From: a virus
Virus record (IMG/VR): IMGVR_UViG_3300019860_000021
Span: 1-63,433 of that record
DNA: 63,433 nt
Strand: one strand, 5' to 3'
Shown: one piece after another, positions 7,960 through 21,075 of the stretch
How positions within the stretch are numbered: the first letter of the stretch is position 1
Layout of the letters: each line of letters begins with the position of its first letter
Position numbers and translations under genes: made by a program
Notes under the pieces: model-generated
Databases searched by the model: none
What the model saw: only the letters and a program-made list of their open reading frames with translations
What the model was told of the DNA's origin: nothing

Positions 7960-8131
7960 GTTGCCTGCTGTTGCCTATCGATGTCAACATTGTGCCGGCA
8001 TGAAGTTGGCACGATCCCTAATTTTGATGATGCAAATGTGACGTGGAGCACTGTGGTGAGTGCCATGCTTGCCCCGGCAGGCGAAGGGTAGAGTGTTGCC
8101 TACCGTTGCCTCACCCCGAGACGAGATACCG
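7960..8131. promoter_or_regulatory. divergent switch region with four GTTGCCT heptamers
   Basis: tGTTGCCTgctGTTGCCT at 7960-7976 and tGTTGCCTaccGTTGCCT at 8095-8111, with 10-bp phasing in each pair. Lower GC than the flanks. TTGACA on the minus strand at about 7984-7989. Confidence 0.6.
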
Positions 8132-8644: not shown

Positions 8645-8671
8645 AAGAGCCGGCCCCGCTACGTGTGAAAA

Positions 8672-8709
8672 CAGTCGCCGTGTCGCTCACGTACGGCGGC
8701 TGTTTTTTT
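8672..8709 (+). terminator. rho-independent terminator
   Basis: cagtcgccgt / acggcggctg stem followed by T7, 28 nt after the stop at 8644. Confidence 0.75.
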
Positions 8710-8823
8710 CATGCACATAAACATCACAAAAAAACACCAAAACAGGTAACGTGTCTCTACCCACCAAAAAAGGGCGCTGCTGCACCAGGTCAATGGCGAT
8801 CAGCTCGAGGGGGGAGGGATGCA

Positions 8824-9087
8824 TTGGCCACCCAGCAGGCACGAGCAGCCGTGCACGTCACCATTCACACCCGCGCCGAGGGAGCACCAGTAGAAGTGTC
8901 CCGCATAGTCGGGGCCGCCACCACACTCCATATTCGCGAAGGCACCACCTGCCAGGAGATCTCCCACGCCATAGGTGAACACCTCAACGGCGACGAGATC
9001 GCCTCATTAACCCGAATTTTTGCTGATCACGGACTCGTTCTAAACCGCACCCCAGAACGCGAAATTCTGCGAACAGATTTCACATAA
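8824..9087 (+). CDS. hypothetical protein (87 aa), start uncertain
   Basis: ORF 8665.. begins inside the terminator, so it was trimmed to the TTG at 8824 after GGGAGGG. Lower-GC 3' half (moron-like). Confidence 0.35.
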   Translation: MATQQARAAVHVTIHTRAEGAPVEVSRIVGAATTLHIREGTTCQEISHAIGEHLNGDEIASLTRIFADHGLVLNRTPEREILRTDFT

Positions 9088-9095
9088 CCCCCTGA

Positions 9096-9133
9096 ATGGA
9101 TTTCCCCAAGCCACAAGGCGCGGGGAAATCCAT
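9096..9133. terminator. 12-bp perfect hairpin between convergent genes
   Basis: atggatttcccc N14 ggggaaatccat. No U-tract. Confidence 0.5.
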
Positions 9134-9149
9134 CCCATCATCCTCGTTC

Positions 9150-9194
9150 TTCTGGCGCGGAGACCCCGGGCTTCAGCCCTGGGGAGGAAGTCAA
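9150..9194 (+). repeat. solo IS200/IS605-type end hairpin
   Basis: 9150-9190 is 41/41 identical to the reverse complement of 25413-25453 (left end of the tnpB element). It ends in GGGGAGGAAGTCAA like the element's right end. Confidence 0.75.
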
Positions 9195-10750
9195 CCCCCC
9201 ACAGGACCGAACACGATACGCACCATCTCCTCCACCGGCGGCCTCGTATTTCGCCCCGGAACCCGCGCAGGCAGCACCCGAATCTCCCTCGTCACTGCCC
9301 GCAGCGCAGCCCTACGCTGGTCCAACTCCCACTCCTGCCACCACGCCCACACATCACTGGCACCCACCAGCTGCCCCACCAGCGGATCCACCAGACGAGG
9401 CGTAGCCTCCTTACGAAGCTGCTCAAGACGACGCTGCAAAGCCCGCTCCCGAGCCGAGGCAATCCGCGGCGTCACCAGCCCCACCGCGACATCCTCCTCC
9501 AGCTGGCGCAGCTCCTCCTCAATTTTGAGGATCTCAGCACGCGCCCGCTCTATCACCCCAGGGTCCTCCTGCACCGCGAACGCCTCGACAACATCAGGCC
9601 GAGACAGCTCCCGGATGAGCAGCGCCTCTACCGCCTCATCCAGCCAGTCGGCACGCCGCGTCACATGCCCCATCGGCGCCCCCTTGTACACGCCGTTACA
9701 CCGGTACCGCCACCTGGCCGGATCATCCCCCGCAGGTCGGCCTCGTCGAGACCGGGGCACGGCTCTGATATCACCGCCGCACACGTCACAGATAGCGATC
9801 CCTGACAACAACCACCGCGCCGCCGCATCCCGAACGTACCGTTGCCCTGTCGCTGCGGACCGTTGTTTAGTGCGGTTGAGCGCGGCCTGCACCTCAGCCC
9901 ACTCCTCCACAGAAAGGATTGGCTCCCACTGGCCCTGGGCGACTTCCTTGCCCTTATAGGTGCGTATCCCCTTGAGTTCGGGGCGGCTCATCACACGGCG
10001 CAGGTTCGCCGGCACCCAGCCCAGCGACACGCGCTCCCTGCCCCTGGAGTCCACGTACTTCTCCCCCGCTACACGACCTTTATCAGTGGGGATACGGCGA
10101 CGGTTCAGCTCTTCTGCGATCCAGCTGAGAGACCTGCCCGCTCGGAGCCAGCGGGCGATCATGCGGATCACCTCGGCTTCATCCGGGTCCGGCTCTTGGC
10201 CGATCAGCCGACCGGTGGCAGGGTCGTAGCGGCGTCGATACCCGTAGCCGGGCACGCCTGCGGGCCTGCCTCGCTCGGCGTTGGCACGCTGGGAGCGGTG
10301 GATGCGTTCGGAGAGCTGATCGACTTCGAGGACGCCTTGGGTGGCCATCATGTCGAGGATGTGCATCTCGTGGGGGTTTTCGGCCCGGTAGACGCTGCTG
10401 CCCACGAGGATGCGGAGCCGACAGTCGATGGCGAGCTCTGCGAATTCTGCCCACTCGGTTCTTCTCCGGGTGGAGCGGGAGAGTTCCCAGAAACCGACGG
10501 CGTCCACCTCGCCGCGGCGGATGATCTGGAGGAGGCGCATCCAGTTGGGACGGTCCGCCTTTGAGTACCGGGATGCGGGGACGTCGTTGTCGGCGAGCTC
10601 GGCGACGATGTCCCAGCCGAGGCGGTCAACGGTGAGGCGGAGATCGGCCAGCTGTTCTTCTACGGATGCTTTTTCTCTGCGGTCGAGAGATACGCGCACG
10701 TAGAGGGCGACGCGGGTGCGCTGGTCTTCTATCAGGTCTGTGTTTTTCAC
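9191..10750 (-). CDS. int: large serine recombinase (integrase)
   Basis: Resolvase-type N-domain VALYVRVSLDRREKAS, recombinase domain, Zn ribbon CDVCGG...RYRCNG and a coiled-coil C-terminus. GTG at 10750 (the ORF track runs to 10969). Confidence 0.9.
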   Translation of the reverse strand: MKNTDLIEDQRTRVALYVRVSLDRREKASVEEQLADLRLTVDRLGWDIVAELADNDVPASRYSKADRPNWMRLLQIIRRGEVDAVGFWELSRSTRRRTEWAEFAELAIDCRLRILVGSSVYRAENPHEMHILDMMATQGVLEVDQLSERIHRSQRANAERGRPAGVPGYGYRRRYDPATGRLIGQEPDPDEAEVIRMIARWLRAGRSLSWIAEELNRRRIPTDKGRVAGEKYVDSRGRERVSLGWVPANLRRVMSRPELKGIRTYKGKEVAQGQWEPILSVEEWAEVQAALNRTKQRSAATGQRYVRDAAARWLLSGIAICDVCGGDIRAVPRSRRGRPAGDDPARWRYRCNGVYKGAPMGHVTRRADWLDEAVEALLIRELSRPDVVEAFAVQEDPGVIERARAEILKIEEELRQLEEDVAVGLVTPRIASARERALQRRLEQLRKEATPRLVDPLVGQLVGASDVWAWWQEWELDQRRAALRAVTREIRVLPARVPGRNTRPPVEEMVRIVFGPVGG

Positions 10751-10767
10751 ATCACTAATAGTGCCAT

Positions 10768-10823
10768 CTCTGGTGTGTCTATGTAATAATATGGTCGCAT
10801 ACTGATAGCTAGACACACCCGAG
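10768..10823. other. candidate attP
   Basis: ctcTGGTGTGTCTA N28 TAGACACACCcgag is a 14-nt inverted repeat with one mismatch (10/10 core). The AT-rich centre lies 18 bp upstream of the int start. Confidence 0.45.
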
Positions 10824-10900
10824 TGGGTGTGGCGGCCCCGAACTGGTGATGCGACCACCAGCCGGGACCTCACCCGATCCTGGAAGGAGCAGGATGGGCT

Positions 10901-11029
10901 ATGAAAAGCGTAGCCGTAGCAGCGGAGGACCGCTGCACCGACCCAGGCCACACGTGGGTCACCATCCAAACGGCGGGCGGCCCGATCGTCACCCGCTGTC
11001 AGACCTGCGGCCGAAAGTGGGAGGGCTGA
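10901..11029 (+). CDS. 42-aa Zn-ribbon-like protein, tentative
   Basis: ATG at 10901 lies 11 nt after AAGGAG: MKSVAVAAEDRCTDPGHTWVTIQTAGGPIVTRCQTCGRKWEG. The stop overlaps the next ATG (TGATG). Confidence 0.4.
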   Translation: MKSVAVAAEDRCTDPGHTWVTIQTAGGPIVTRCQTCGRKWEG

Positions 11030-11412
11030 TGTCCTCCATGCCGCGTTGCACCGTCGTCTCGTTCGGGTACGGGCACGGCCCGGCCCCCGAGGGGGACGTC
11101 ATCGTCGACCTGAGGGAGCTCCTGCACCGTCCCCTCCCTACCGCGTTGCGGACTATGGACGGTCACGACACCTGCATCAAGCACTGGGTGGAGAACACGC
11201 CTGGCGCGTGGGCGGTGATCAACGGCGTCGTGGACATGGTCCGCGCAATCCTCGCTGAAGCCCCGCACCGGAACGTGCAGATCGCGGTCGGCTGCACCGG
11301 CGGTCGGCACCGTTCTGTCGTGGTCGCCGAAAAGATCGGCCGGGGTCTGGAGCAGAGCGGATACCTGGTCGAGGTCGATCACCGGGACATGCACCGCGCG
11401 CTCGTGGCCTAA
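11029..11412 (+). CDS. RapZ C-terminal-domain-only protein
   Basis: SFGYGHGPAPEGDVIVDLRELLHRP...IAVGCTGGRHRSVVVAEKI...DHRDMH parallels the RapZ/YvcJ C-domain (recalled: SFGFKHG..DADYVFDVRFLPNP..AIGCTGGKHRSV). No P-loop N-domain. Confidence 0.7.
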   Translation: MSSMPRCTVVSFGYGHGPAPEGDVIVDLRELLHRPLPTALRTMDGHDTCIKHWVENTPGAWAVINGVVDMVRAILAEAPHRNVQIAVGCTGGRHRSVVVAEKIGRGLEQSGYLVEVDHRDMHRALVA

Positions 11413-11576
11413 TCGGCCACGTCCCGTGTCTGGATTTGACCCACATTTGTTCGTAGCGTCCCCTAGCCCACCTCGTGTGGTGGCTCTGGCACCCGCCCCC
11501 CTTCCCCAGTCGCGAGTCGCGTCCTGGCGGGTGCCGGGGCGGCCACACGGCCGACCCCTCACACAGAAAGGAACAC

Positions 11577-11645
11577 ATGGAAGCTCAGCTCCGCGACTAC
11601 GAGCGGACCCTCAGTCTCATGCGCCACCTGCAGAAGAAGAAGTAG
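11577..11645 (+). CDS. 22-codon micro-ORF, speculative
   Basis: CACAGAAAGGAACAC-ATG gives MEAQLRDYERTLSLMRHLQKKK, followed by a 10-bp GC hairpin. Confidence 0.2.
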   Translation: MEAQLRDYERTLSLMRHLQKKK

Positions 11646-11732
11646 TAGCCGAGGGCGGCCCGCCCGCAGCGTCCCCAAGTCCGGGCGGGCCACGTCCCCA
11701 CCGTTACGCGAACTAGTGAGGAGGTTTCCAGC

Positions 11733-11966
11733 ATGCCACGTCTGCGTCGAAGGGACCTTCTCGCCATGCGTTTGTTCATACTCGCCGCCTACACCGTTGC
11801 CGCTGCGCTGGTCGCGTGGACGGGCCGGGACTCGGCCTGGTGGTGGGTGCTGCACTTCACCGGCGCGCTCGCCGGGCTCTGCGCGGTGTGGATTGCTCTC
11901 GACTCGGTTCCCGCAGACGAGGGCACCCCAGACCAGGCAGAGCAGTACTTCAGGGAGGACAGGTGA
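11733..11966 (+). CDS. small membrane protein (77 aa)
   Basis: GAGGAGG SD. Two hydrophobic segments (LFILAAYTVAAALVAW, VLHFTGALAGLCAVWIAL). Confidence 0.55.
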   Translation: MPRLRRRDLLAMRLFILAAYTVAAALVAWTGRDSAWWWVLHFTGALAGLCAVWIALDSVPADEGTPDQAEQYFREDR

Positions 11967-13492
11967 CAGCAGAGACAGTGGAAGCTGCTGAGGCTGCGCC
12001 GCCGACACCGGGGCCTCCGGTGATCACGGTGACGGCCGAGCCTGTGGACGACGATCAGTCCACCGCCGACGCGACGAAGGAGAAGCAGGAGAAGGAAGAG
12101 GAGGCTCCGTTCCCGGCTGGCCAGGTGCTGTTGGGTGCCGGATCAGCGCTGACCCTCAGCTCGGTGGCGTTGGCGTCCGCGGTGGGCCCGTGGGGCCTGC
12201 TGTTGGCGCCGGGCGCAGTTGCTGTGGGTGGCGGGGTGTTTCTCGCTACCCGGGGCCGGAAGCGTTCAAAGCGCGGCCGTTCCTCCGAGCGCTTTGGTGG
12301 TGCCCGCAGTGGCGCAGGGGCGCGGCCTGTGGGTCGCGTCGGTGGCGCGCGGCTCGGCGGTGGTGGCCGCCGTAGCAGTGGCGGTGGTCGTGGCGGGGTT
12401 TCTCCCACGCATGGTGGGGGTCGTCCTGCTGCGGCCCGGTCGGTGGGGTTGGGTGCGCGGCCTGCTCCGACATCGCGCACTGCCCCGTGGGCTCGTGGTG
12501 GGACTCCTCGTCCCGGTGCTGGTGGGCGCGCGGTGGTAGCGCCGCCGCTGCGGCTGCGCCCTGCTGCGGGTGCTGGTGGCCGAGTGCCAGGTGGTGGCGC
12601 TGGCGTCCGCCCTGGTGGTGGGGCTTCCCGTCGCGTGGGTCGCGGCAGTGGTATGGGCCCGGCTCCCCGCAACCGGTGGGGTGCCTCCCAGCAGCCTTCG
12701 GCGCATCCTCGTGGTGGGCTGCGTCGGGCTGTGCGTGCTGCCGGCCGCAGGGCCGCTGATTGGGCAGATGACCGTAGCGGTCGGCGTCTGTCGACTGGGT
12801 GGCGGGCCGCTAAAGACCAGCCGGGATTCCGCGCGGCGCACAAGGCTGCTCGGGACACGCTCCGCAGCAAGAAGCGGGGGCCTGCTACCGAGGTGGCGGC
12901 GCTGTTGGTGGCGGTCGCGTCATGGCTGCGCAGCCTCTGGGCGCGTCGGCAGGACAGCGGTGGCGCCAAGGAAAAGGACAAAAAGAGCAAGAAGACTGCG
13001 ACTGCGTCGGCTGTGTCGCAGTCGGAAGTGGTATCCCCCGCGGGAGACGCCGACGTCGAGGAAACCCCGCCCAGGGAGACCACCCCTCCTCCCTCGGGTG
13101 AGGAGGACTCCCCCGAACACACATCAACCACCCACACGACTAGAGGAGGTCGAGTGAGCACGTTCCCGCTGCTGGAAATCGCCGCTGAGATGCAGAGCGC
13201 GGCAGCCAAATACAGCCCCGAGACAATGTGGCAAGTCATAGCGGACGCTGAACAGCTGCCCGGGGTGATCGACTCGGTCGCCTCCAGCATCCGCATCTAC
13301 CTGGAGCGGCTGGTGTCAGAACAGTACCCGGTCGACACCGCGGTGATTGACCAGCTCGGCGAGGTGTACCGGAGCCTCAAAACGGCGGCGGCGCAGGCCG
13401 AGGAAGTCGGTCCGATGATCCGCAACATTCACCAGCACGACGTGGACCGGCGTGAGGCGCCCCGCGGGGACGAGACCCGCTGGAACGTCTAA
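11963..13492 (+). CDS. membrane-associated Gly/Arg-rich low-complexity protein with structured C-terminal domain
   Basis: GTG at 11963 overlaps the upstream stop (GTGA). TM-like LLGAGSALTLSSVALASAVGPWGLLLAPGAVAVGGGVFLA, about 200 aa of R/G-rich sequence, then a helical C-domain. Confidence 0.6.
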   Translation: MTAETVEAAEAAPPTPGPPVITVTAEPVDDDQSTADATKEKQEKEEEAPFPAGQVLLGAGSALTLSSVALASAVGPWGLLLAPGAVAVGGGVFLATRGRKRSKRGRSSERFGGARSGAGARPVGRVGGARLGGGGRRSSGGGRGGVSPTHGGGRPAAARSVGLGARPAPTSRTAPWARGGTPRPGAGGRAVVAPPLRLRPAAGAGGRVPGGGAGVRPGGGASRRVGRGSGMGPAPRNRWGASQQPSAHPRGGLRRAVRAAGRRAADWADDRSGRRLSTGWRAAKDQPGFRAAHKAARDTLRSKKRGPATEVAALLVAVASWLRSLWARRQDSGGAKEKDKKSKKTATASAVSQSEVVSPAGDADVEETPPRETTPPPSGEEDSPEHTSTTHTTRGGRVSTFPLLEIAAEMQSAAAKYSPETMWQVIADAEQLPGVIDSVASSIRIYLERLVSEQYPVDTAVIDQLGEVYRSLKTAAAQAEEVGPMIRNIHQHDVDRREAPRGDETRWNV

Positions 13493-13508
13493 GGAGGAGT
13501 GGAGAGCA

Positions 13509-15494
13509 ATGGCGAAGAAGGTGGACTGGGGGCTGAAAAGTAACGGCCCCGTCGTCAACGGCCTCCAGGCCGCCTTGGGCCTGGGCGCGGTGACCGCTGT
13601 GGCCGACTATGCGGCCATCCACCCCATCTGGGCGTTGGGTGCGGCCGCGGTGGGTGCGGGAGGCACGCTGCTGGTGCGGGGCATGCAGTCCCCTAACCGG
13701 GTGATCGCTGACCTGGCCCGGTGGGCGGGTGCTGGGGGCTGGTCGTTCAGCCTGCTCTCGGGGCTCGCTGACTGGAGTGTGGGTTCGGTGGCCACGCTGG
13801 CTGGGGGTGCGGTGCTCGCATCGTGCCTGGGCCCCGCCATTGACCGGCGTGAGCAGGCCGCGGCGGCCGCGCTCGCGTCGGGTGGCATTTCTAGTGGCGG
13901 GTTGATGCTGGGGTCGACTGCGCGGGAGTGCGCGCAGTGGCAGCAGGCTTTGGTCCGCGTGTACGGGCAGGTGCTGCGTGGCGTGGTTGTGGAGAACGTG
14001 CGCGAGTGGCCCAACCGGTACGGAAAAGACGTAGATGTACTTCTGCCTGCGAACGGAGTCACCTCCGATGCGCTGCGCCGTGGCCTTCCCGGGTTGGCCA
14101 CGGTGATGGATTTGCCGCGTGGCTGCCCGATTGAGCTGGTGGAGCCGGAGGGAAGCCGACGGCGCGTGGTGCTGCGGGTGGCCACGGTCAACAGGTTGGA
14201 TGCTGACATTCCCTACCCGGTAGACGGGGCGGGGGTGGAGTCGATCCTGGAGGGCATCCCGTTTGGGGAGCACGCGGACGCGTCGATTGCGTCGGCGCCG
14301 ATCCGTGAGGACTCGTGGCTGATCGTCGGTAAACGCGGGTCGGGGAAGACGACGTTGTTGCACGGGTTGACTGCGACGATCGGCTCCTGTCGGGATGCTC
14401 TGGTGTGGCACATCGATCTTAATGGTGGCAGCCTGACGCAGCCGTGGATCGAGCCGTGGCTGCGGGGTGAGGTGGCTCGTCCTCCGGTGGACTGGGCGGC
14501 GCCCACGGTGGATGAGGCGATCCTGATGATGCGGGCTGCGGTGCGGATGGCTAAGCACCGCAAGGTCGCCTACCGGGGGTTGAAGCGCAAGCACAACGTG
14601 TCGCTGCTGCCTATCAGCCCGGAGCTGCCCGCGGTGGAGATCATCATCGACGAGGGTGCTGAGGCGTTGGCTGCTGCGGGCCGTGGCAAGGTCGCTGAGC
14701 TGGCCAATCTGCTGGCGGAGATCCAGCGGATCGCGCGGGATGCGGCGATTAATGAGGTGATCTCCGCGCTGCGGGGTACGTCGGACCTGATCCCGGCGGC
14801 GATGACGTCGCAGACCGGGGTGTCCATTTGCATGCGGGTGGAGCAGGACAAGGAGCTGGCCGCGGTGTTCGGCTGGCATTCGGGAGTGGACTACCGGGAC
14901 CTGCGCCGCAAGGGCAGTGGGTTCGTCGGCACCGACCGGGGGATCCAGCAGTTCCAGTCGTGGAACATTCTGCCCGCGCAGATTGAGGAGATCGGGGTGC
15001 GGATCTCTCGGCAGCGCCCCGATTTGGATGCGGCGACCGCGCGGGCGGGCGGGGAGGAGTATGCGACCCGCTATGAGCGCATGCGGGAGCTGTTTGAGGA
15101 CCCGGATGCGCTTATCGACCCCGCTGACAGTGACAGCAGTGCTGTGCTGGCGCGTGCGGCGGCTCCGGTGGAGTCTGGCAGATGGACGGTGACTGCTGGG
15201 TGGGATGACCCTGGTGTGCGGCGTGAGCAGGTGCGGGTCGCGCTCGTCCCTGCTCGGGAGGACGAGGACATTGTGGAGCGGATCATCGCGCTGATGGATG
15301 AGCGGGGTGAGGACCGTATCCCTCGTGAGGTGGCCGCCCGGGAGTTGACGGGTGGGGATGATGAGGAGCTGCGCCGCCGGGTGGCTGAGGCTGGTGGGCC
15401 TGCGCCGCGGTCGATTCGCTACCGGGGGTTGCCGGCGCGTGGCTGGTATCGGCGGGATTTGGAGGCGGTGCGGGAGGTGGTGTCACAGGCGTGA
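13509..15494 (+). CDS. FtsK/SpoIIIE-family (TraB-like) DNA translocase
   Basis: AAGGAGG SD before the ATG at 13509. N-terminal TM segments, Walker A IVGKRGSGKTT, Walker B VEIIIDEGAE. Confidence 0.85.
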   Translation: MAKKVDWGLKSNGPVVNGLQAALGLGAVTAVADYAAIHPIWALGAAAVGAGGTLLVRGMQSPNRVIADLARWAGAGGWSFSLLSGLADWSVGSVATLAGGAVLASCLGPAIDRREQAAAAALASGGISSGGLMLGSTARECAQWQQALVRVYGQVLRGVVVENVREWPNRYGKDVDVLLPANGVTSDALRRGLPGLATVMDLPRGCPIELVEPEGSRRRVVLRVATVNRLDADIPYPVDGAGVESILEGIPFGEHADASIASAPIREDSWLIVGKRGSGKTTLLHGLTATIGSCRDALVWHIDLNGGSLTQPWIEPWLRGEVARPPVDWAAPTVDEAILMMRAAVRMAKHRKVAYRGLKRKHNVSLLPISPELPAVEIIIDEGAEALAAAGRGKVAELANLLAEIQRIARDAAINEVISALRGTSDLIPAAMTSQTGVSICMRVEQDKELAAVFGWHSGVDYRDLRRKGSGFVGTDRGIQQFQSWNILPAQIEEIGVRISRQRPDLDAATARAGGEEYATRYERMRELFEDPDALIDPADSDSSAVLARAAAPVESGRWTVTAGWDDPGVRREQVRVALVPAREDEDIVERIIALMDERGEDRIPREVAARELTGGDDEELRRRVAEAGGPAPRSIRYRGLPARGWYRRDLEAVREVVSQA

Positions 15495-15720
15495 CGGGGG
15501 TTGTGTCACTCCCGTGACGCTGTCACACGAGTGTAGCGTTCTGACCTGCGGTAACGCCGTGACGGGGGTGTTGCTGTAGGGGGAGAAACAAGGGGTTTCT
15601 TCCAGGGGCCCTGCTCTTTGGGGTGGGGTGTCACACCGTCACATCGTCACAGAGAAGGAAAGGGTGGCCCGGGGCGACCAAACCGGCGGGCCACCACCCA
15701 CAGAAAGGGGCGACACCATC

Positions 15721-17190
15721 ATGGCATCCACGGTTCCTATGTCAGATGACGTGGCGTTGGAGGAGATCGCCGCGTTTGAGGGGCGGTTGGGTGTAGAGCC
15801 TGGCCGCAACCAGCTGATGTCTGAGTTCGGTTGGGGTGGGTCTCGGGCGTCTCGGCTGCTTCGGCTGTATCGGGAGCGGAAGCAGCGGTCTGGGGCGGAG
15901 GCGGTCCGGTTGCTGCCCGGGCTTGAGGCGGACCGGTCTGAGGTGGTGGTCCAGCAGTCTGGGTCGGAGGCGGTCCGGTCTGGTGCCGTGGACCGGTCCG
16001 GTGAGCAGTCTGGTGAGCAGTCGGGTGGACCGGTCCGGAAGGCTGACGGGGTGGACCGGTCTGTCTCGTCTGGTCTGGGGCGGTCCAGTGAGGCGGTCCA
16101 GTCTGGTGGACCGGTCCAGCAGTCCGGGTCGGAGGCGGTCCGGTCTGTCTCCTCGTCTGGTCCGGTGGTCCGGTCTGGTGGAGCAGTCCGGTCTGACGGG
16201 GCGGCTCGGGGTGAGCAGTCCACCGGTCCGGACCAGGATGCTGCTGTCGGTGTCGAGGCAGCCCAGGCTGGACTGGTCCGGGTAGAAGGGCTGGTCCCGT
16301 CGCTGGACCGGTGCGAGCCTGATCCCTGGGTTGAGGGGTGGACTGGTGGTCCGGCAGACCAGTCCGAGGTGGATGGCGTGGTGGACCGGTCCGGTGTGGT
16401 GGCGCAGGCCAGCATGAGCGGACCGAATACTGGTCCGGTGGACCGGGTCGAGGCTCGGACTGAGTCGGGTGGTCTGGTCCGGTCTACCGCCCGGACGGGT
16501 GTAGCGGACCGGTCCGGTCCGGGGTCCTCTGCTGGTGTGGTGGACCGGTCCGGTCCGGGTGGTGCGGCTGGCCTGGTGGACCGGTCCGGTGGGGTAGTCC
16601 GAGACGAGGTGGACCAGTCCGGTCCAGTGGAGGCCGCCAGTGAACCGGTCCGGTCTGGGTTGGGTGAAGCCGGTCCGGCAGTCCAGGCGCAGCGGACCGG
16701 GGATGCGGACCCGCGGTCCGGCGACGGACCGGACCGCAAGCCGTGGGGGCTCATCATCGCGATCCTTGCGATCAGCCTGTCTGCGTTCACCGCCGTGTGG
16801 GGCGGATGGGTCGGACTAGGCAGAATGGTTGGGTTCGGCAAGGTAAACCTGCTGCCTGGTTTCGTTGCCGATGGTGGGTGGGCCACGATTGACCTGGCGA
16901 TCACCCTGCCCATCGGGATTGAGGCGTATGCGGCGTCCGCGCTGTATGTGGCGGTGGCTGGTCTGGTGCGAGGCGGGAGCCGTTGGTTCGCGGGGAGCAG
17001 TGCTGGGCTCTCGCTGGCCTTGGGTGCGTTCGGTCAGGCTGCCTATCACGTGCTGGATGCGCAGGGCCGCACGGTTGCGCCGGAGTGGATCGTGGTGTTT
17101 GTCAGCGTGTTGCCGGTCGTGGTGCTGGGGATGGCTGGTGTGCTGCTGCACCTGGTGCTGGAGGAGCGTAAGCATCGGCGTCGCCGTTAG
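15721..17190 (+). CDS. repeat-rich protein with C-terminal DUF2637-like (SpdB-like) 4-TM domain
   Basis: ATG at 15721. About 300 aa of degenerate (V/A)(D/R)RSG repeats. C-terminal LIIAILAISLSAFTAVWGGWVGLGRM...LPVVVLGMAGVLLHLV resembles DUF2637 of actinomycete conjugative elements. Confidence 0.7.
   Translation: MASTVPMSDDVALEEIAAFEGRLGVEPGRNQLMSEFGWGGSRASRLLRLYRERKQRSGAEAVRLLPGLEADRSEVVVQQSGSEAVRSGAVDRSGEQSGEQSGGPVRKADGVDRSVSSGLGRSSEAVQSGGPVQQSGSEAVRSVSSSGPVVRSGGAVRSDGAARGEQSTGPDQDAAVGVEAAQAGLVRVEGLVPSLDRCEPDPWVEGWTGGPADQSEVDGVVDRSGVVAQASMSGPNTGPVDRVEARTESGGLVRSTARTGVADRSGPGSSAGVVDRSGPGGAAGLVDRSGGVVRDEVDQSGPVEAASEPVRSGLGEAGPAVQAQRTGDADPRSGDGPDRKPWGLIIAILAISLSAFTAVWGGWVGLGRMVGFGKVNLLPGFVADGGWATIDLAITLPIGIEAYAASALYVAVAGLVRGGSRWFAGSSAGLSLALGAFGQAAYHVLDAQGRTVAPEWIVVFVSVLPVVVLGMAGVLLHLVLEERKHRRRR
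15895..16740 (+). repeat. array of GGACCGGTCC palindromes and CGGTCCGG half-sites
   Basis: Perfect GGACCGGTCC at 15990, 16027, 16108, 16383, 16506, 16542 and 16578. GGTCCGGACC at 16225. Many partial copies. Confidence 0.8.
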
Positions 17191-17213
17191 GCCATGGCCT
17201 GGGAGAATGGAAT

Positions 17214-17249
17214 GGGGGGGGGAAGCTGGTGCTTCTCCCCCTTTTTTTT
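17214..17249 (+). terminator. rho-independent terminator
   Basis: G-run/gaagc tggt gcttctccccc followed by T8, 24 nt after the stop at 17190. Confidence 0.8.
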
Positions 17250-17317
17250 GGTTTCTTTTCGGGGGGTTGTGTGTGCCGTTGGAGGCGTCTGGCTGGCGGG
17301 TTTCTCCCCACCAACTA

Positions 17318-17347
17318 TTGTATAAACCCCATACACTCGTGTATGAT
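17318..17347 (+). promoter_or_regulatory. sigma70-like promoter with overlapping palindrome
   Basis: TTGTAT N18 TATGAT. CATACACtcGTGTATG (17330-17345) overlaps the -10. 30 nt upstream of the ATG at 17377. Confidence 0.5.
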
Positions 17348-17376
17348 GTTCATACAGACACAGAGAGGGGATACCG

Positions 17377-17997
17377 ATGGCCACCATCACCGCCGCCGAC
17401 GCCGCCGCCCGCGCGGGCCGCACCGTCGACACCATCCGCCACTGGTGCCGCATGGGCGCCGTCCGCGCCACCAAGGTAGCTGGCCGGTGGGCCATCGACG
17501 TCGCCTCCCTCGACTACCGCATCAGCCTCGACACGCAGGAGCCGACCATGCCCACACTGGTGTGCGAGCACACCACCGACCCCGACAACCCCTGCCGAGA
17601 CTGCCAGCGCAAGTTCCGCCCGATCATGTTCAAGCGGTACGTCGCCGCGCTCACCGAGGGCCTGGAGCTGCCGCCGCTGACCGGCACCCCCAAGCAGATC
17701 GCCTGGGCAGAGCAGCTGCGCGCCCGCAGCCTCGCGGGCAACTGGGAGGACGTAGAGCGCGGCCTGACCGACGAAGGCCGTGTCCTCAACGTGGTCTGGG
17801 AGGCCGGCTGGTGGGCGCCGGAGCCCGACGAGGAGGAGTTCGGGATCGAATACCCCAACTGGCAGCAGAAGCTCATCCCCCACGAGGAGCTGGCCCGCCT
17901 CCGCACCCTGGCGGAGGCCCGCGCGTGGATCGCCCGCGTTGTCGCGGAGCGCACCGACGCGGCCTGGTGGATCGACCCCTACCGCTACGGCTACTGA
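17377..17997 (+). CDS. MerR/excisionase-type HTH protein (206 aa)
   Basis: N-terminal ITAADAAARAGRTVDTIRHWCRMGAVRATKVAGRWAI is an HTH_17-like motif. Confidence 0.6.
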   Translation: MATITAADAAARAGRTVDTIRHWCRMGAVRATKVAGRWAIDVASLDYRISLDTQEPTMPTLVCEHTTDPDNPCRDCQRKFRPIMFKRYVAALTEGLELPPLTGTPKQIAWAEQLRARSLAGNWEDVERGLTDEGRVLNVVWEAGWWAPEPDEEEFGIEYPNWQQKLIPHEELARLRTLAEARAWIARVVAERTDAAWWIDPYRYGY

Positions 17998-18057
17998 CCC
18001 GACCGGGGCCACCTGACCGGCGGCCCCTCCACCCCTACCGATTCGAGAGGACACGAC

Positions 18058-18654
18058 ATGACCGTCAACGAGCGTCCCGCCTGGGAGCAGCGCATCCTCG
18101 ACACCCGCGAGGCGATCAACCGGGCGATCGCTGCCCACGACCAGGCCATCGCCGACGCGAAGATGGCCAACGCTCCGGTCTCCCAGATCGCCCGAGTCCT
18201 GGGCCGCCAGGACCGCACCGGCCTGTACAGGGCCATCCAGCGCGCCAGGGAGCGCACCATGCAGGCCGTGCCGCAGCCCCCGCACACGCCGGTCGCCTAC
18301 GTGCGCACCCGGCAGCGGGCCAGCGACCTGCGCCTGCGCGTTGAGATGGCGCTGCGCGCCCGCGGCATCGCCACCATGAGCGTGTGGCCCGACGTCTGGT
18401 ACCTGGGCATGGGCGGAGTGCCCCTCCTCCAGATCAACCTGGAGGAGACCACGCTCGCCGAGGGCCGTCCCGAGACGGCGCCGGGCGTGTACCGGGTCGT
18501 CGCCCGGGAGGAGCCCGAGGACGGCCTGCGGGTGCTGCGCACCGTGGAGTCCCGACGCCTGCCCACCCGCCGCAGCGAGGACGGCATCGGGTCCGTGACG
18601 GACGTCGACGCTCTCGCGGCGCTGTCCGTTGAACTCCTCGCCCCCTACTGCTGA
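18058..18654 (+). CDS. hypothetical protein with HTH-like segment
   Basis: 198-aa ORF. VSQIARVLGRQDRTGLYRAIQRA. Confidence 0.55.
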   Translation: MTVNERPAWEQRILDTREAINRAIAAHDQAIADAKMANAPVSQIARVLGRQDRTGLYRAIQRARERTMQAVPQPPHTPVAYVRTRQRASDLRLRVEMALRARGIATMSVWPDVWYLGMGGVPLLQINLEETTLAEGRPETAPGVYRVVAREEPEDGLRVLRTVESRRLPTRRSEDGIGSVTDVDALAALSVELLAPYC

Positions 18655-18706
18655 CATCGCCCCAGAACACGCCACGACAAGAAGGACAACCTGAAAGGAC
18701 AACCTG

Positions 18707-19312
18707 ATGCGCATCGAGAAGATCGTTAACTGCACCGGGATGCCCCTGCTGATCCCCCAGGGGGCGGGTGACGAGCACGAGTACGTCGAGTACCCGGCCG
18801 CGCGAGTGCCGGCGCGGGTTGTGACCGAGGAGGTCACCGTGGCCGGACTGGACGTGCGAGTCACCCGAGACCTCGGGGTGGAAGGGCTCCCCGACCCACA
18901 GGAGGGCGTCTACTACCTGGTTACCTCCCGGGTTGCGCTGGCCGCCCCGGACCGCACCGACCTGCTGGTCCCCTCGGACATCTACGAATGGGGGGACGGG
19001 CGGAAGGTGGCTGGGGCGCTGCTGCGCCCCGAGCCCACGCCCCGTGGGTGGGGCCGGGGTCTCCCCGACCTCTCCGCGGTCGCAATCACCCTGAGTGACC
19101 ACCACGGCACATGGGCGACCCAGGTCGTCGCCGAAAAGACCCGTGACGGGAGCTGGGTGGTCCACACCGACGCGTCCCCGGGGGACGGCAGCTTCCCCGG
19201 CCGCTACACAGGGCTCGACCAGGGCGCAGCCCTGGCGAAGCTCGCCGACCTGCTCCCTGCCGCCCAACAGCAGGGCCGGGTCTTCGAGGAGAAGCTCAAG
19301 AACCTCCTCTGA
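18707..19312 (+). CDS. hypothetical protein; N-domain paralogous to the middle of 28367..29365
   Basis: MRIEKIVNCTGMPLLIP...GLPDPQEGVYYLVTSRVALAAPDRTDLLVPSD aligns with MRIINLTPHDVTLVT...VLPPPQPGVVYVVARPVAERANRPDLVVPTN. Confidence 0.6.
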   Translation: MRIEKIVNCTGMPLLIPQGAGDEHEYVEYPAARVPARVVTEEVTVAGLDVRVTRDLGVEGLPDPQEGVYYLVTSRVALAAPDRTDLLVPSDIYEWGDGRKVAGALLRPEPTPRGWGRGLPDLSAVAITLSDHHGTWATQVVAEKTRDGSWVVHTDASPGDGSFPGRYTGLDQGAALAKLADLLPAAQQQGRVFEEKLKNLL

Positions 19313-19323
19313 CCGGCCGACGT

Positions 19324-19405
19324 GAGGGACTGCTCCCACCTGGAATGGGAGTGGTCCCTCCCCTATCACAGGCGTCCCCGTCTAAGCTTGGTGGGCGGGG
19401 ACGCC
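19324..19405 (+). terminator. two strong hairpins after the stop at 19312
   Basis: gagggactgctccca N7 tgggagtggtccctc (19324-19360) and ggcgtccccg N15 cggggacgcc (19371-19405). No U-tract. Confidence 0.5.
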
Positions 19406-19421
19406 TAACCATATGGTTTAC

Positions 19422-19633
19422 CGGTAGTTAGGCGGCGCAAGCCCCGGTCTTCAGGCCGGGGTAAGCCGCCAAGAACATTCTCGCCGCTGGACGGGCGGAG
19501 AGACTAAACGCCTGTGGAGGCGACGTAAGACCACCCTTTGGGGTGGCGGACGCCGGTGAAGCAGGAACCCACCGGAGCGCGGCGTGAGCCGCGCAGGAGG
19601 AATCTCCGGCATTCACGCCGGGGAGGACGTCAA
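19422..19633 (+). mobile_element. non-autonomous IS200/IS605-type MITE carrying an orphan omega-RNA scaffold
   Basis: Starts after TTAC (19418-19421). The LE-like hairpin ccccggtcttcaggccgggg is fused to the last codons of a tnpB (AKNILAAG..). Blockwise homology to the revcomp of 24128-24290. Ends ...GGGGAGGACGTCAA. Confidence 0.7.
19470..19633 (+). ncRNA. orphan omega-RNA (TnpB guide-RNA scaffold) candidate
   Basis: Conserved blocks ggcggagag..taaacgcctgtggag..gtaagacc..ggtgaagcaggaa..cccggc.ttca..ggggagga.gtcaa are shared with the tnpB-linked copy. The variable helices between them keep self-complementarity. Confidence 0.6.
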
Positions 19634-19738
19634 ACGGTAAACTAGCTGCAATAACCTCATAAAACGCGAGCCCGCCGGGTGCTGGGAACACCACGACGGG
19701 CTCTGACCCACCTACCTGACTACCCCAGGAGGCAGGCT

Positions 19739-19927
19739 ATGCATAAGCCTAACCCCATCGTGCCCAAGCTCGGGCACGACCCTCACTCTTTCCCCCAGCC
19801 GGGCACCCCCATCCCCGACTGGATCACCCTTCACCCCAAGATCACCCACTTCGACTTCGGCCACCGAAACCCAGCCCAGACCGTCGCAGCCAAGGCCGCC
19901 GAGTTCGTCCAGGGGGCGTCCAAGTGA
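19739..19927 (+). CDS. hypothetical protein (62 aa)
   Basis: ORF 19679.. trimmed to the ATG at 19739 after AGGAGG. The stop overlaps the GTG of the next gene. Confidence 0.45.
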   Translation: MHKPNPIVPKLGHDPHSFPQPGTPIPDWITLHPKITHFDFGHRNPAQTVAAKAAEFVQGASK

Positions 19928-21075
19928 GCGACGTCATCGAACTGGAAGCCCTCGACCAGCCCACCTTCACCCAGGTCGGACACTGGCTCATCTTCCGCCA
20001 CGACATCTCCCCCACAGCGCGGCACCTCTACACCGTCCTCGCCGCATTCGTGCACCAAGGACGCCGCAACACCGGTGACACCGAGGTGTGGCCCTCACTC
20101 AACCTGCTCGCCGTCATCCTCGGCCTCTCCAAGGGCGAATCCGTCACCCCCTATCTCGACGAACTCATCCAGGCCGACGTCATCCGCAAACGCTCCACCA
20201 CCATCGGCGGCATGAAGGCGCGGAACACCTACGCCATCCGGTTCAACCCGCCGCCCGGCACTCCGGAGGCGAACGGGCTCGGAGACCTCCTGGCCCCGCT
20301 CAAGGAGATCGCCAGCGACCCGAAGGCCATGAGCCGGGCAGCCAAGGAGGTGCGCGCGACGATCAACGAGCGGCGGGAGCGGGAGAAGCAGGCACGCGCC
20401 GGACAGTCCGGGAAAACCGCAGGTCGCGCCGTACCCCGGAAAAGCGGGGTACGTACCCCAGAATTCCGGGGTACGTACCCCCGAAAACCGGGGTGGAACA
20501 ATACGAAGGTCGAACAATACGAAGGTCGTCCTCTTCTTCCCGCGCGCGCGGAAGCTGCGGCGCCGCCTCGACCTCGGCGCAGCGAGGAGGAAGAGAAGAA
20601 CAACACCAAGGGTCAGAAGGGGTGTTCTTCTGACCAGCAAAGGTGCACCACGTGCACCATGGTTGACCAGCGAAAGTGCACGACGTGCACCAAGAGGGCG
20701 GAAACCCCGGAAACCCGCGCCATCCGCGTCGTCCTCGATCGCCTCGCCGACCATTCCCCTACCGAGGACGAAGCCCGCGCCGTCATCACCCACATCCGCA
20801 ACCAGGCCACCCAGCGCGGCACCACGATCGCCCGCATCGACAAGTGGCTCGACGGCCGCGACCCCGACACCCTCCGGCACGACCTCGCCCACATCCGCGC
20901 ACAAACCACCCACCAAGGCCCGGGATGCGGCATCCACCGCCGCAAAACCCTCCCCTGCCGCATGTGCGCCATCGCCGCGGCAACCGGCGACGTCGAGCCG
21001 CTTCTCGCCGAGCTCAAACGCGTAGGCCCCGATGAGCGGCCCGACCTCGCTGACCTCTGCGCCGGCCACTCCTAA
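19924..21075 (+). CDS. replisome organizer / initiator-like winged-helix protein
   Basis: N-terminal HWLIFRHDISPTARHLYTVLAAFV...WPSLNLLAVILGLSKGESVTPYLDELIQADVIRKR is DnaD/organizer-like. Sits upstream of dnaB. Has an internal repeat cluster. Confidence 0.6.
   Translation: MSDVIELEALDQPTFTQVGHWLIFRHDISPTARHLYTVLAAFVHQGRRNTGDTEVWPSLNLLAVILGLSKGESVTPYLDELIQADVIRKRSTTIGGMKARNTYAIRFNPPPGTPEANGLGDLLAPLKEIASDPKAMSRAAKEVRATINERREREKQARAGQSGKTAGRAVPRKSGVRTPEFRGTYPRKPGWNNTKVEQYEGRPLLPARAEAAAPPRPRRSEEEEKNNTKGQKGCSSDQQRCTTCTMVDQRKCTTCTKRAETPETRAIRVVLDRLADHSPTEDEARAVITHIRNQATQRGTTIARIDKWLDGRDPDTLRHDLAHIRAQTTHQGPGCGIHRRKTLPCRMCAIAAATGDVEPLLAELKRVGPDERPDLADLCAGHS
20431..20690. repeat. ori-like cluster of palindromes and direct repeats inside the organizer gene
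   Basis: GGGGTACGTACCCC at 20446-20459 and 20468-20481 (22-bp phasing). gaacaatacgaaggtc x2 in tandem (20496-20527). ggtcagaag N7 cttctgacc (20611-20635). GTGCAC-N3-GTGCAC at 20643-20657 and 20676-20690. Confidence 0.55.

What the first reader, a model, noticed from the sequence alone, without database searches (positions are those of the whole stretch)
15895..16740. clt-like array: at least 7 perfect GGACCGGTCC palindromes immediately downstream of the translocase gene
Within about 850 bp there are seven exact copies of the 10-bp palindrome GGACCGGTCC (15990, 16027, 16108, 16383, 16506, 16542, 16578). There is also one GGTCCGGACC (16225) and many CGGTCCGG half-sites. As I recall, plasmid TraB proteins recognise 8-bp repeats (pSVH1 TRS GACCCGGA, reverse complement TCCGGGTC) clustered in a clt locus at or just after traB, often inside spd genes. 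TCCGGTC/GACCGGA here differs by one base. The array could be the cis-acting recognition locus for the adjacent translocase. Alternative explanation: the DNA repeat is only a by-product of tandem VDRSG codon repeats (gtg gac cgg tcc ggt).
Basis: partly seen in the sequence, partly recalled or inferred. Interest (0 to 1): 0.7.

Follow-up and report, generated by a model that had tools for sequence, protein, structure and literature searches.

The report
Phage DNA-motif array beside a DNA pump
A complete Thermobifida phage genome carries 21 same-direction copies of the 7-base motif GGTCCGG, written across all three reading frames of a membrane-protein gene next to a plasmid-type DNA pump; it is probably a protein docking site on the DNA, which would suggest the phage can move its genome the way conjugative plasmids do.

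Summary
There are seven exact GGACCGGTCC copies, against 0.35 expected.

The basic unit is the oriented heptamer GGTCCGG. It occurs 21 times on the + strand and twice on the - strand in 15903-16721.

The array lies inside gene 15721-17190. This gene encodes an N-terminal helix-turn-helix (HTH) domain, a roughly 270-aa linker and four transmembrane helices. It starts 227 bp after an FtsK/TraB-like translocase gene.

The array is not a by-product of VDRSG codons:
- The motif is read in all three frames (8/7/6).
- With the peptide held fixed, 2.6 copies are expected (maximum 10).
- Substitutions among three close phages show no codon-position bias in the array, unlike the flanking domains.
- An unrelated metagenomic member of the same gene family (L337) carries 22 copies in the opposite orientation, encoding a different peptide.

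The window is a complete circular relative of Thermobifida phage P1312. The gene family otherwise sits beside traB-like genes in integrative conjugative elements of actinomycetes (AICEs).

Best reading: a cis-acting protein-binding array for an AICE-like DNA-translocation module, similar to a clt locus. The protein that reads it is unresolved. It could be the translocase winged helix or the membrane protein's own HTH. Neutral expansion of a DNA repeat is not excluded.

The parts
15903..16721 (+). Array of 21 oriented GGTCCGG heptamers (CGGTCCGG x15, GGTCCGGT x13). Spacings are 5-105 bp. It is embedded in linker-coding sequence and read in frames 8/7/6.
15990..15999 (.). GGACCGGTCC palindrome 1 (read as V-DRS-G)
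16027..16036 (.). GGACCGGTCC palindrome 2 (read in another frame, G-GPV-R)
16108..16117 (.). GGACCGGTCC palindrome 3 (G-GPV-Q; followed by AG, so it carries no full heptamer)
16383..16392 (.). GGACCGGTCC palindrome 4
16506..16515 (.). GGACCGGTCC palindrome 5, followed by an overlapping GGTCCGGTCCGG
16542..16551 (.). GGACCGGTCC palindrome 6, followed by an overlapping GGTCCGGTCCGG. Part of a 36-bp tandem unit.
16578..16587 (.). GGACCGGTCC palindrome 7
15721..17190 (+). Gene for a 489-aa membrane HTH protein: N-terminal three-helix HTH, a roughly 270-aa unconstrained linker that holds the array, and a C-terminal domain of four hydrophobic helices. Family members are normally 230-260 aa.
15745..15894 (+). 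N-terminal HTH-like domain (aa 9-58). Helix 3 reads GSRASRLLRLY. It is one candidate reader of the palindromes.
16753..17187 (+). C-terminal membrane domain, with homologues beside traB-like genes in AICEs
13452..15494 (+). FtsK/SpoIIIE/TraB-like translocase gene (680 aa from the GTG start; 661 aa from the ATG at 13509)
15267..15491 (+). [quoted passage not shown] It is the other candidate reader of the array.
11816..13492 (+). Upstream module gene: hydrophobic N-terminus, Gly/Arg-rich disordered region and a conserved helical C-terminal domain. This C-terminal domain lies directly upstream of the translocase gene in nearly all of the 77 related loci that encode it. There is no significant motif array here.
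17214..17243 (+). Intrinsic terminator (13-bp stem followed by a T run), 24 nt after the stop codon of the array gene

Best explanation
The array is a cis-acting protein-binding DNA locus written into the coding sequence of a dispensable protein linker. It belongs to a dsDNA-translocation module of the AICE or plasmid type carried by a P1312-like Thermobifida siphophage that encodes a serine integrase (P1312 itself behaved lytically in the laboratory).

The module has three genes:
- an upstream membrane protein with a disordered region;
- an FtsK/TraB-like pump with a C-terminal winged helix;
- a membrane-anchored HTH protein, whose linker holds the array.

Proposed mechanism (inferred): hexamers of the translocase, possibly helped by the membrane HTH protein, load on the cluster of same-direction GGTCCGG sites. 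This is how Streptomyces TraB loads on 8-bp repeats in clt. The pump then moves the circular double-stranded phage or prophage genome across a septum or a cell contact.

Shown here: the array is real, unique in the genome, oriented, and maintained at the DNA level. The neighbouring proteins have the required domains. The gene family is a conjugation-module family.

Inferred only: that a protein binds the array, which protein does, and any transfer function.
For: 1. Enrichment and orientation. GGTCCGG occurs 21 times on + and twice on - within 819 bp. There is no other cluster in a complete 63.3-kb genome.

2. DNA-level constraint.
- The motif is read in all three frames (8/7/6), as AVR, RSG and GP.
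- With the peptide fixed and codons redrawn from phage usage, 2.6 copies are expected (maximum 10 of 5000).
- The best count for any 7-mer under that null averages 5.4 (maximum 8), against 21 observed.
- Even when the region's own synonymous codons are permuted, the maximum is 18 for this heptamer and 17 for any 7-mer.
- Codon use is skewed: Arg CGG 92% against 37% in the phage, Gly GGT 56% against 18%.

3. The peptide is not constrained. Substitutions among the window, P1312 and L055 fall 13/10/10 by codon position inside the array, and 1/2/16 in the flanking domains.

4. Independent recurrence.
- L337 carries the same HTH-linker-membrane gene family downstream of a large P-loop, TM and wHTH-like protein. 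Its linker holds 22 copies of CCGGACC, the reverse complement, in frames 9/4/9. These encode GPDRT/RTGP, and the peptide null reaches a maximum of 14.
- L269 and L254 are members of the same family. Each has two GGACCGGTCC palindromes 27 bp apart just before the first membrane helix.
- GGTCCGG arrays, in either orientation, also sit in the disordered part of the gene upstream of distant phage ftsK-like genes: L064/L065, L059, L198 and, more weakly, L060 (peptide-null P=0.09) and L086 (not tested).

5. Internal control. The roughly 300-aa disordered region of the upstream gene has no such array (P=0.14).

6. Context.
- The translocase profile matches the FtsK motor 2IUU (E=6e-11) and the conjugative coupling protein TcpA.
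- Its C-terminal winged helix is modelled with pLDDT above 90.
- The membrane-HTH family sits directly upstream of a 707-727-aa gene in AICEs. In L108 that protein matches FtsK-family models only weakly. These AICEs also carry GntR, DUF3631 Rep, Xis and Int genes.
- The array gene ends at a strong terminator.

7. Precedent.
- TraB binds clustered 8-bp direct repeats (PMC4447253, PMC5133688).
- The pWTY27 clt has 4 copies of TGACACC and overlaps traA (PMC3583192).
- The pJV1 clt has nine 9-bp repeats (PMC3583192).
- The plasmid-phage pZL12 both conjugates and forms particles (cited in PMC4170104 and PMC3583192).
- In this same genome, the replication-initiator gene also carries a 12-bp repeat array in its linker.
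Against: 1. There is no binding or transfer data, and the P1312 paper reports none.

2. The closest divergent relative, L106 (translocase 79% identical), has a different 175-aa gene downstream. It shows no array on its 5-kb contig.

3. Relatives at about 50% identity have only weak arrays (P from 0.002 to 0.27).

4. In the distant clade, the winged-helix segment aligned at the putative recognition helix is identical (PHAATIGRWL) in elements whose arrays use three different motifs: CGGGGCG, GTAGCGG and CGCCACG. Motif and winged helix therefore do not clearly co-vary.

5. The window and L337 translocases show no detectable sequence similarity, yet the motif is the same.

6. Core heptamer columns are only non-significantly more conserved than the spacers (2.1% against 4.3% variable, P=0.34).

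7. Copy number is polymorphic through 36-39-bp unit insertions and deletions. This also fits a slippage-prone neutral repeat.

8. Twenty-one sites over 820 bp is much larger than the characterised clt loci, which have 4-9 repeats in 50-180 bp.
Confidence: 0.45

Rival explanations
1. The array is read by the N-terminal HTH of the very protein whose gene contains it. The palindromes GGACCGGTCC would be operator-like or tethering sites for a dimeric, membrane-anchored HTH protein. The precedent is SpdA2 of pIJ101, which binds the palindromic sps sites inside spdA2. The function would be autoregulation, membrane tethering or segregational stability rather than loading of the translocase.
For: - There are seven perfect 10-bp palindromes.
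- Family members L269 and L254 carry exactly two such palindromes 27 bp apart inside the same gene.
- The N-terminal domain is modelled as a three-helix HTH with pLDDT about 92.
- The window and L337 share an HTH helix 3 of the form (S/T)RAxRLL and share the motif. AICE members with helix PKARAIL (L108, L351, L353) lack the motif.
- The HTH-membrane family is what the window and L337 share. Their translocases are not detectably similar.
- SpdA2/sps precedent: PMC4170104.
Against: - Only 7 of the 21 heptamers are part of a palindrome, and the array is strongly oriented (21:2). A symmetric dimer site does not explain this.
- GGTCCGG arrays occur next to ftsK-like genes in loci where this family is not detected within 8 kb.
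- The helix-to-motif correlation rests on 2 loci against 3.
- The Foldseek matches to HTH domains are not significant.
Confidence: 0.2
2. The array is a neutral, DNA-level repeat with no sequence-specific function. Slippage and unequal recombination would expand short GC-rich units in a linker whose peptide is unconstrained. Only motifs survive that are free of stop codons and encode disorder-friendly residues in every frame, and GGTCCGG/CCGGACC is such a motif. That filter could also explain why the motif recurs.
For: - The peptide is unconstrained.
- Copy number differs among near-identical phages (21, 22 and 24) through 36/39-bp units, and among metagenomic protein fragments.
- Many degenerate copies are present: GGTCCAG x5, GGTCTGG x5, AGTCCGG x3.
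- Other lineages have other motifs in equivalent linkers. Motifs that contain a stop codon in one frame, such as GTAGCGG, are confined to one frame.
- Motif and winged helix do not co-vary in the distant clade.
- The 79%-identical relative does without the gene.
Against: - Most copies sit in unique flanks rather than in long duplicated units.
- The same heptamer recurs in both orientations, in unrelated linkers, and specifically beside translocase-module genes.
- The neighbouring disordered region of similar length has no array.
- The exact 10-bp palindrome pair is conserved in the short-linker relatives L269 and L254.
- The strong 21:2 polarity has no obvious neutral cause beyond coding-strand composition.
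Confidence: 0.2
3. The repeat exists for the peptide (VDRSG/AVRSG units), and the DNA motif is only its codon shadow.
For: Some units are in-frame tandem copies of 36 bp. The D-R-S reading recurs in L269 and L254.
Against: - The motif is read in three frames, giving three different peptides.
- The peptide-preserving null gives 2.6 copies (maximum 10) against 21 observed.
- There is no codon-position bias among substitutions.
- L337 encodes the reverse-complement peptides.
Confidence: 0.03
4. The array is a different kind of cis site: a replication origin built of iterons, a partition centromere, or a cluster of host restriction/modification sites (it contains RsrII CGGWCCG and AvaII GGWCC sites).
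For: Iterons and centromeres are also arrays of short repeats and can lie inside genes. CGGWCCG occurs 21 times in the region.
Against: - A better origin candidate exists. Two inverted clusters of 12-bp repeats lie inside the replication-initiator gene at 62620-62915.
- No ParA/ParB-type gene was found in the genes searched (8060-21075). The only nearby P-loop protein is RapZ-like.
- There is no AT-rich unwinding element (GC 0.69).
- No precedent was found for arrays acting as restriction-site decoys.
Confidence: 0.05

Closest known systems
[quoted passage not shown]
   Same: A cluster of short (7-9 bp), same-direction repeats beside or overlapping the gene of an FtsK-like translocase that has a C-terminal winged helix. 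There is a single locus per replicon. The motif is GC-rich and shares the core TCCGG with the reverse complement of the pSVH1 sequence GACCCGGA.
   Different: The host replicon is a tailed phage. There are 21 copies over 820 bp rather than 4-9 copies over 50-180 bp. The array lies entirely inside a coding linker and is read in three frames. The translocase scores 27 bits against the NCBIfam plasmid_TraB cut-off of 800. Binding is untested.
SpdA2 and its sps site in pIJ101 (PMC4170104)
   Same: Short palindromic sites lie inside the coding sequence of the gene for the DNA-binding protein that reads them. Both are in a transfer/spread gene neighbourhood. Synonymous recoding is the decisive experiment in both cases.
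   Different: sps is two palindromes, whereas here there are 7 palindromes within 21 oriented heptamers. The protein here is membrane-anchored. Homology to SpdA2 was not tested.
Streptomyces plasmid-phage pZL12 (as cited in PMC4170104 and PMC3583192)
   Same: A single element that makes phage particles and also carries tra-type DNA-transfer genes.
   Different: As cited, pZL12 is a theta-replicating plasmid-prophage whose homologue pSLE1 carries ParAB; here there is a 63-kb phage with a serine integrase and no ParAB found in the genes searched. No sequence comparison was possible, because the pZL12 paper is not held. No cis site of this kind is known to me for pZL12.
Origin iterons inside the phage lambda O gene (from my own knowledge)
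   Same: Cis-acting repeats are overprinted on the linker-coding part of a gene. This genome appears to do the same in its initiator gene at 62620-62915.
   Different: Lambda has four 19-bp iterons beside an AT-rich region, read by the O protein. Here the gene is not a replication gene and there is no AT-rich element.

Membership tests
clt locus of actinomycete conjugative plasmids and AICEs | Cluster of several same-direction 7-9-bp repeats within a few hundred bp | tested here: met
   21 GGTCCGG on + against 2 on - in 819 bp; 0.35 palindromes expected by chance
clt locus of actinomycete conjugative plasmids and AICEs | Lies next to or overlapping the tra (FtsK-like) gene of the same element | tested here: met
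   The first heptamer is 409 nt after the translocase stop, in the next gene. A terminator follows at 17214.
clt locus of actinomycete conjugative plasmids and AICEs | Specifically bound by the cognate translocase through its C-terminal winged helix | not testable with these tools
   Needs EMSA or footprinting. The indirect covariation test is mixed.
clt locus of actinomycete conjugative plasmids and AICEs | Required in cis for conjugal transfer | not testable with these tools
   Needs genetics in Thermobifida
clt locus of actinomycete conjugative plasmids and AICEs | Carried by a conjugative plasmid or AICE | tested here: not met
   The window is a complete circular tailed-phage genome, 96-98% identical to P1312. 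P1312 is annotated with tail, portal and terminase genes.
TraB (Streptomyces plasmid transfer translocase) | FtsK/SpoIIIE-type P-loop motor domain | tested here: met
   Profile A1 against PDB: FtsK 2IUU E=6e-11, TcpA 6O1W E=1e-8. phrog_31069 FtsK/SpoIIIE-like, 1217 bits.
TraB (Streptomyces plasmid transfer translocase) | Reaches the curated NCBIfam plasmid_TraB (NF041214) score | tested here: not met
   27.2 bits against a cut-off of 800. Pfam FtsK_SpoIIIE was not detected at E<0.01.
TraB (Streptomyces plasmid transfer translocase) | [quoted passage not shown] | tested here: met
   AF2 model of aa 606-680 has pLDDT above 90, with H-b-H-H-b-b-H topology. All top Foldseek hits are winged-helix domains, though with weak E values of 0.04-1.
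TraB (Streptomyces plasmid transfer translocase) | N-terminal membrane anchor | tested here: inconclusive
   Hydrophobic stretches at about aa 36-75 and 90-130 are visible in the translation. No transmembrane predictor was run.
SpdA2/sps-type self-gene palindrome site | Palindromic sites inside the coding region of the gene for a DNA-binding protein of the transfer/spread region | tested here: met
   Seven palindromes in a gene whose product has a predicted HTH. Two palindromes in relatives L269 and L254.
SpdA2/sps-type self-gene palindrome site | Sequence homology of the protein to SpdA/SpdA2 | not tested
Pfam, NCBIfam and PHROGs gave no hit for this protein.
KOPS/SRS-type chromosome-wide polar motifs | The motif is spread over the whole replicon with strand skew | tested here: not met
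   Outside the array there are 6 copies on + and 9 on - in 62.6 kb

The most novel reading that the evidence does not exclude
Tailed phages of mycelial actinomycetes carry a TraB/Spd-like dsDNA pump together with its own cis-acting loading array. They use it to move the phage genome between hyphal compartments, between cells or into spores without a capsid, as a 'conjugative' or 'spreading' phage. The loading sites are overprinted on protein linkers in any frame and either orientation.
Probability: 0.2. Interest if true: 0.85.

Novelty: new variant of a known kind. Interest (0 to 1): 0.62.

Why it matters
If the array is a loading site for the adjacent pump, a sequenced and cultivable phage (P1312 and its relatives) would give a direct test of whether phages have adopted the conjugation and spreading machinery of actinomycete plasmids. 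That would be a capsid-independent route of phage spread in multicellular bacteria.

FtsK-like genes are common in actinophage genomes, and PHROGs files them among moron and host-takeover genes. No study of their function in phages was found in the searches made here.

The locus is also a clean example of a cis element encoded in all three frames of a gene. That matters for annotation and for synonymous-recoding designs.

Tried and rejected
- Plasmid database (PLSDB) megablast of 13-18 kb: no match.
- Pfam, NCBIfam and PHROGs on the array protein: no family.
- Rfam on 15.0-17.6 kb: only a sub-threshold miRNA match, treated as spurious.
- Viral-contig scan for three GGTCCGG within 30 bp: at least 120 loci, many apparently collagen-like Gly-Pro-Gly repeats (judged from repeat spacing and giant-virus contig names, not analysed locus by locus). 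It was uninformative apart from L198.
- Viral-contig scan for the palindrome pair: only the same phage lineage, plus L229. In L229 the two palindromes flank a TTGACA in an unrelated contig.
- Metagenome scan for the palindrome pair: most of the 120 or more loci are unrelated to the module. By my rough estimate the count is near chance for a database of that size. Only L278, L337, L269, L254 and L318 were informative.
- Test of core against spacer conservation among three 96-99% identical phages: too few substitutions.
- Search for a motif shared across the PHAATIGRWL clade: only generic GC-rich triplet repeats.
- AICE members of the gene family (L108, L351-L353): no GGACCGGTCC in their linkers.
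- Vogelmann 2011 and Zhong 2010 are not held in the library. Their content is cited only through papers that quote them.
- The antisense ORF 15639-16913 (annotated in P1312 as ORF61) was rejected as the gene. The + strand ORF has two conserved domains with homologues.
Full report
**1. The observation**

Shuffles expect 0.35, with a maximum of 2.

K-mer counting shows that the palindrome is not the basic unit. The most enriched word is the heptamer GGTCCGG. It occurs 21 times on the + strand and twice on the - strand between 15903 and 16721. CGGTCCGG occurs 15 times and GGTCCGGT 13 times. The rest of the genome holds 6 (+) and 9 (-) copies, so this is one polar cluster and not a genome-wide skewed motif. 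Seven heptamers follow GGACC, or a variant of it, and so form the palindromes. Some overlap with a 5-bp period, as in GGTCCGGTCCGG.

**2. What the array sits in**

The array is not intergenic. It fills the middle of ORF 15721-17190 (+), which has a good ribosome-binding site and encodes 489 aa. A strong intrinsic terminator follows at 17214-17243. The gene starts 227 bp after the stop codon of a 680-aa protein encoded at 13452-15494.

That protein is an FtsK/SpoIIIE-type ATPase:
- It matches phrog_31069 over its full length at 1217 bits.
- A profile of 31 homologues matches the FtsK motor 2IUU at E=6e-11, the conjugative coupling protein TcpA, and EssC/YukB.
- It scores only 27 bits against NCBIfam plasmid_TraB, whose cut-off is 800.
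- Its last 75 residues are modelled with pLDDT above 90 as a winged helix-turn-helix. All top Foldseek matches are winged-helix DNA-binding domains, though with weak E values.

**3. The replicon**

The window is 96-98% identical to Thermobifida fusca phage P1312 (60,284 bp) along its length. Its last 127 nt repeat its first 127 nt, so it is a complete circular assembly of about 63.3 kb.

The P1312 paper mentions ORF63 (FtsK-like) only as possibly involved in DNA segregation. It says nothing about the repeat. A serine integrase gene lies at 9191-10969.

**4. The array gene family**

The N-terminal 60 residues are modelled as a three-helix HTH-like domain with pLDDT about 92. Foldseek matches sigma region 4, LexA, BrxR and IdeR, none significantly. 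The C-terminal 150 residues contain four hydrophobic helices.

Homologues of the C-terminal domain are normally 230-260 aa long. They have the same N-terminal PSRNRIMxEF..G..KAR.IL motif and a linker of only 50-70 residues.

In Amycolatopsis, Labedaea and a metagenomic actinomycete, this gene lies directly upstream of a 707-727-aa gene. The L108 product matches FtsK-family and TraB models only weakly. These elements also carry GntR, DUF3631 Rep, Xis and tyrosine integrase genes, which makes them classical AICEs.

The phage protein is therefore a conjugation-module membrane HTH protein whose linker has been expanded by about 270 residues. That expansion is the array.

**5. DNA repeat or peptide repeat?**

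(a) The heptamer is read in all three frames, 8, 7 and 6 times, as A-V-R, R-S-G and G-P. The same 14-mer GGTGGACCGGTCCGG is read both as V-D-R-S-G and as G-G-P-V-R.

(b) With the peptide held fixed and codons redrawn from this phage's usage:
- 2.6 copies are expected, with a maximum of 10 in 5000 draws.
- The best count for any 7-mer averages 5.4, with a maximum of 8, against 21 observed.
- Even permuting the region's own synonymous codons gives a maximum of 18 for this heptamer and 17 for any 7-mer.
- Arg is CGG in 92% of cases (37% in the phage), and Gly is GGT in 56% (18% in the phage).

(c) Among the window, P1312 and L055, substitutions inside the array fall 13/10/10 on codon positions 1/2/3. 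In the two flanking domains they fall 1/2/16. The linker peptide is therefore not under purifying selection. Core heptamer columns vary half as often as spacer columns (2.1% against 4.3%), but with so few changes this is not significant (P=0.34).

(d) The roughly 300-aa disordered region of the upstream gene has no comparable array (P=0.14). A disordered region does not produce such an array by itself.

**6. Recurrence elsewhere**

A metagenome scan for the palindrome pair returned many unrelated loci, plus several informative ones.

- L337 encodes a 781-aa protein with transmembrane segments, a Walker A motif and a wHTH-like C-terminus. Next comes a member of the same HTH-linker-membrane family. 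Its expanded linker holds 22 CCGGACC, the reverse complement of the window's motif, in frames 9/4/9. These encode GPDRT/RTGP, and the peptide-preserving null reaches a maximum of 14.
- L269 and L254 are family members with short N-termini. Each has exactly two GGACCGGTCC palindromes 27 bp apart, just before the first membrane helix.
- L318 has 16+9 heptamers and 7 palindromes in the disordered N-terminus of a different membrane protein.

Starting instead from the translocase gave 104 related loci. Many of them carry dense arrays of a lineage-specific heptamer in the disordered part of the gene just upstream of the ftsK-like gene. Several are significant against the peptide-preserving null and use more than one frame. 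GGTCCGG itself recurs in L064/L065, and more weakly in L060 (P=0.09) and L086 (not tested). It recurs in inverted form in L059 and L198.

The motif is therefore tied to this gene neighbourhood, not to any peptide.

**7. Who reads it?**

This is not resolved.

Points favouring the translocase:
- The array is adjacent to its gene.
- It has a winged helix.
- The array is polar.
- GGTCCGG arrays occur in loci that lack the HTH-membrane family.
- Documented TraB/clt systems provide precedent (PMC4447253, PMC5133688, PMC3583192).

Points against the translocase:
- The relative whose translocase is 79% identical (L106) has a different downstream gene. It shows no array on its 5-kb contig.
- Relatives at about 50% identity have only weak arrays.
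- One winged-helix helix, PHAATIGRWL, goes with three different array motifs.
- The window and L337 translocases are not detectably similar.

Points favouring the membrane protein's own HTH:
- The palindromes themselves.
- The conserved two-palindrome arrangement in L269 and L254.
- Helix 3 of the form (S/T)RAxRLL is shared by the window and L337, whereas motif-free AICE members have PKARAIL.
- The SpdA2/sps precedent in pIJ101 (PMC4170104).

A neutral, slippage-driven repeat remains possible. The peptide is unconstrained, and copy number is polymorphic (21, 22 and 24 copies; 36/39-bp units). GGTCCGG is also free of stop codons and encodes disorder-friendly residues in all six frames. However, most copies sit in unique flanks. 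The motif recurs in both orientations, specifically beside module genes. An exact palindrome pair is conserved in short-linker relatives. These points argue for selection on the DNA.

**8. Other cis functions**

A better candidate for the replication origin exists. Two inverted clusters of 12-bp GGGAACCCTTCC repeats lie at 62620-62915, inside the linker-coding part of the replication-initiator gene (phrog_8064, E=2e-214). This is also an in-genome precedent for cis repeats written into protein linkers.

No ParA/ParB-type gene was found in the genes searched. No Rfam family matches.

**9. Verdict**

The codon by-product explanation is refuted.

The most likely reading is a protein-binding cis locus of an AICE-like DNA-translocation module carried by a tailed phage. 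It works like a clt locus. It cannot be filed as a clt member, because binding and transfer are untested and the replicon is a phage.

I give 0.45 to the clt-like loading-site model, 0.2 to self-binding by the membrane HTH protein, and 0.2 to a neutral DNA-level repeat. The remainder goes to other cis functions or to the peptide.

It is a new variant of a known kind, and P1312 makes it directly testable.

Noticed in passing
window 1-127 and 63307-63433: The last 127 nt are identical to the first 127 nt. The window is therefore a circular assembly of a complete phage genome of about 63.3 kb, 96-98% identical to Thermobifida phage P1312 (60,284 bp).
   Followed up: yes
window 62620-62915 (inside gene 62208-63431, - strand): Two clusters of 12-bp repeats (GGGAACCCTTCC / GGAAGGGTTCC), in inverted orientation about 130 bp apart, lie in the linker-coding part (EGFPEGFPEGFP) of the replication-initiator gene (phrog_8064, E=2e-214). 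This is probably the origin iterons, arranged as in the lambda O gene.
   Followed up: partly
L046, L048, L049, L052, L072, L081; L041, L050, L071, L075-L077, L084; L074; L083: Related prophages and viral contigs carry dense arrays of other heptamers in the disordered part of the gene just upstream of the ftsK-like gene. Examples: CGGGGCG up to 27 copies, with an inverted CGCCCCG array about 1 kb further upstream; GTAGCGG; CGCCACG; CGCAACG. Close relatives with the same translocase winged-helix helix carry different motifs.
   Followed up: partly
window 11816-13492; 77 related loci: The C-terminal 110 aa or so of the upstream gene is conserved, and lies immediately upstream of the translocase gene in nearly all of the 77 related loci that encode it. 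No family database has it. In L337 the equivalent gene has a weak WXG100-like match.
   Followed up: partly
window 10846-11412 and 16 related loci: A RapZ-C-terminal-like P-loop protein (phrog_18111) recurs within a few kb of the ftsK-like gene in 16 loci.
   Followed up: no
L106 (Logan contig, 4975 bp): A relative whose translocase is 79% identical has a 175-aa gene in place of the 489-aa array gene. This slot downstream of the translocase gene is therefore variable.
   Followed up: partly
L001 14747-16456 (P1312_061), equivalent to window 15639-16913 on the - strand: GenBank annotates an antisense 'hypothetical protein' across the array in P1312. It is most likely a spurious ORF in repeat DNA that is stop-free in all frames.
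   Followed up: partly
L229 264-300: In an unrelated viral contig, two GGACCGGTCC palindromes flank a TTGACA in inverted arrangement (GGACCGGTCCGGGGGTTGACATCCCCCGGACCGGTCC). It looks like an operator or a hairpin.
   Followed up: no
L108 1-600: A repeat array with the look of a CRISPR array (units containing GTCTTCCCCGCGCCTGCGGGGGTGTTCC, 10-11 copies) lies about 8 kb from the Amycolatopsis AICE.
   Followed up: no
L003 2913-3677, L022 12476-13357, L002 12889-13662, L337 6603-7298: By eye, the gene for a membrane protein with an HRxLTHT motif follows the module in several loci. I take it to be a DUF457/YdjM-like metal-dependent hydrolase; no alignment or family search was run.
   Followed up: no
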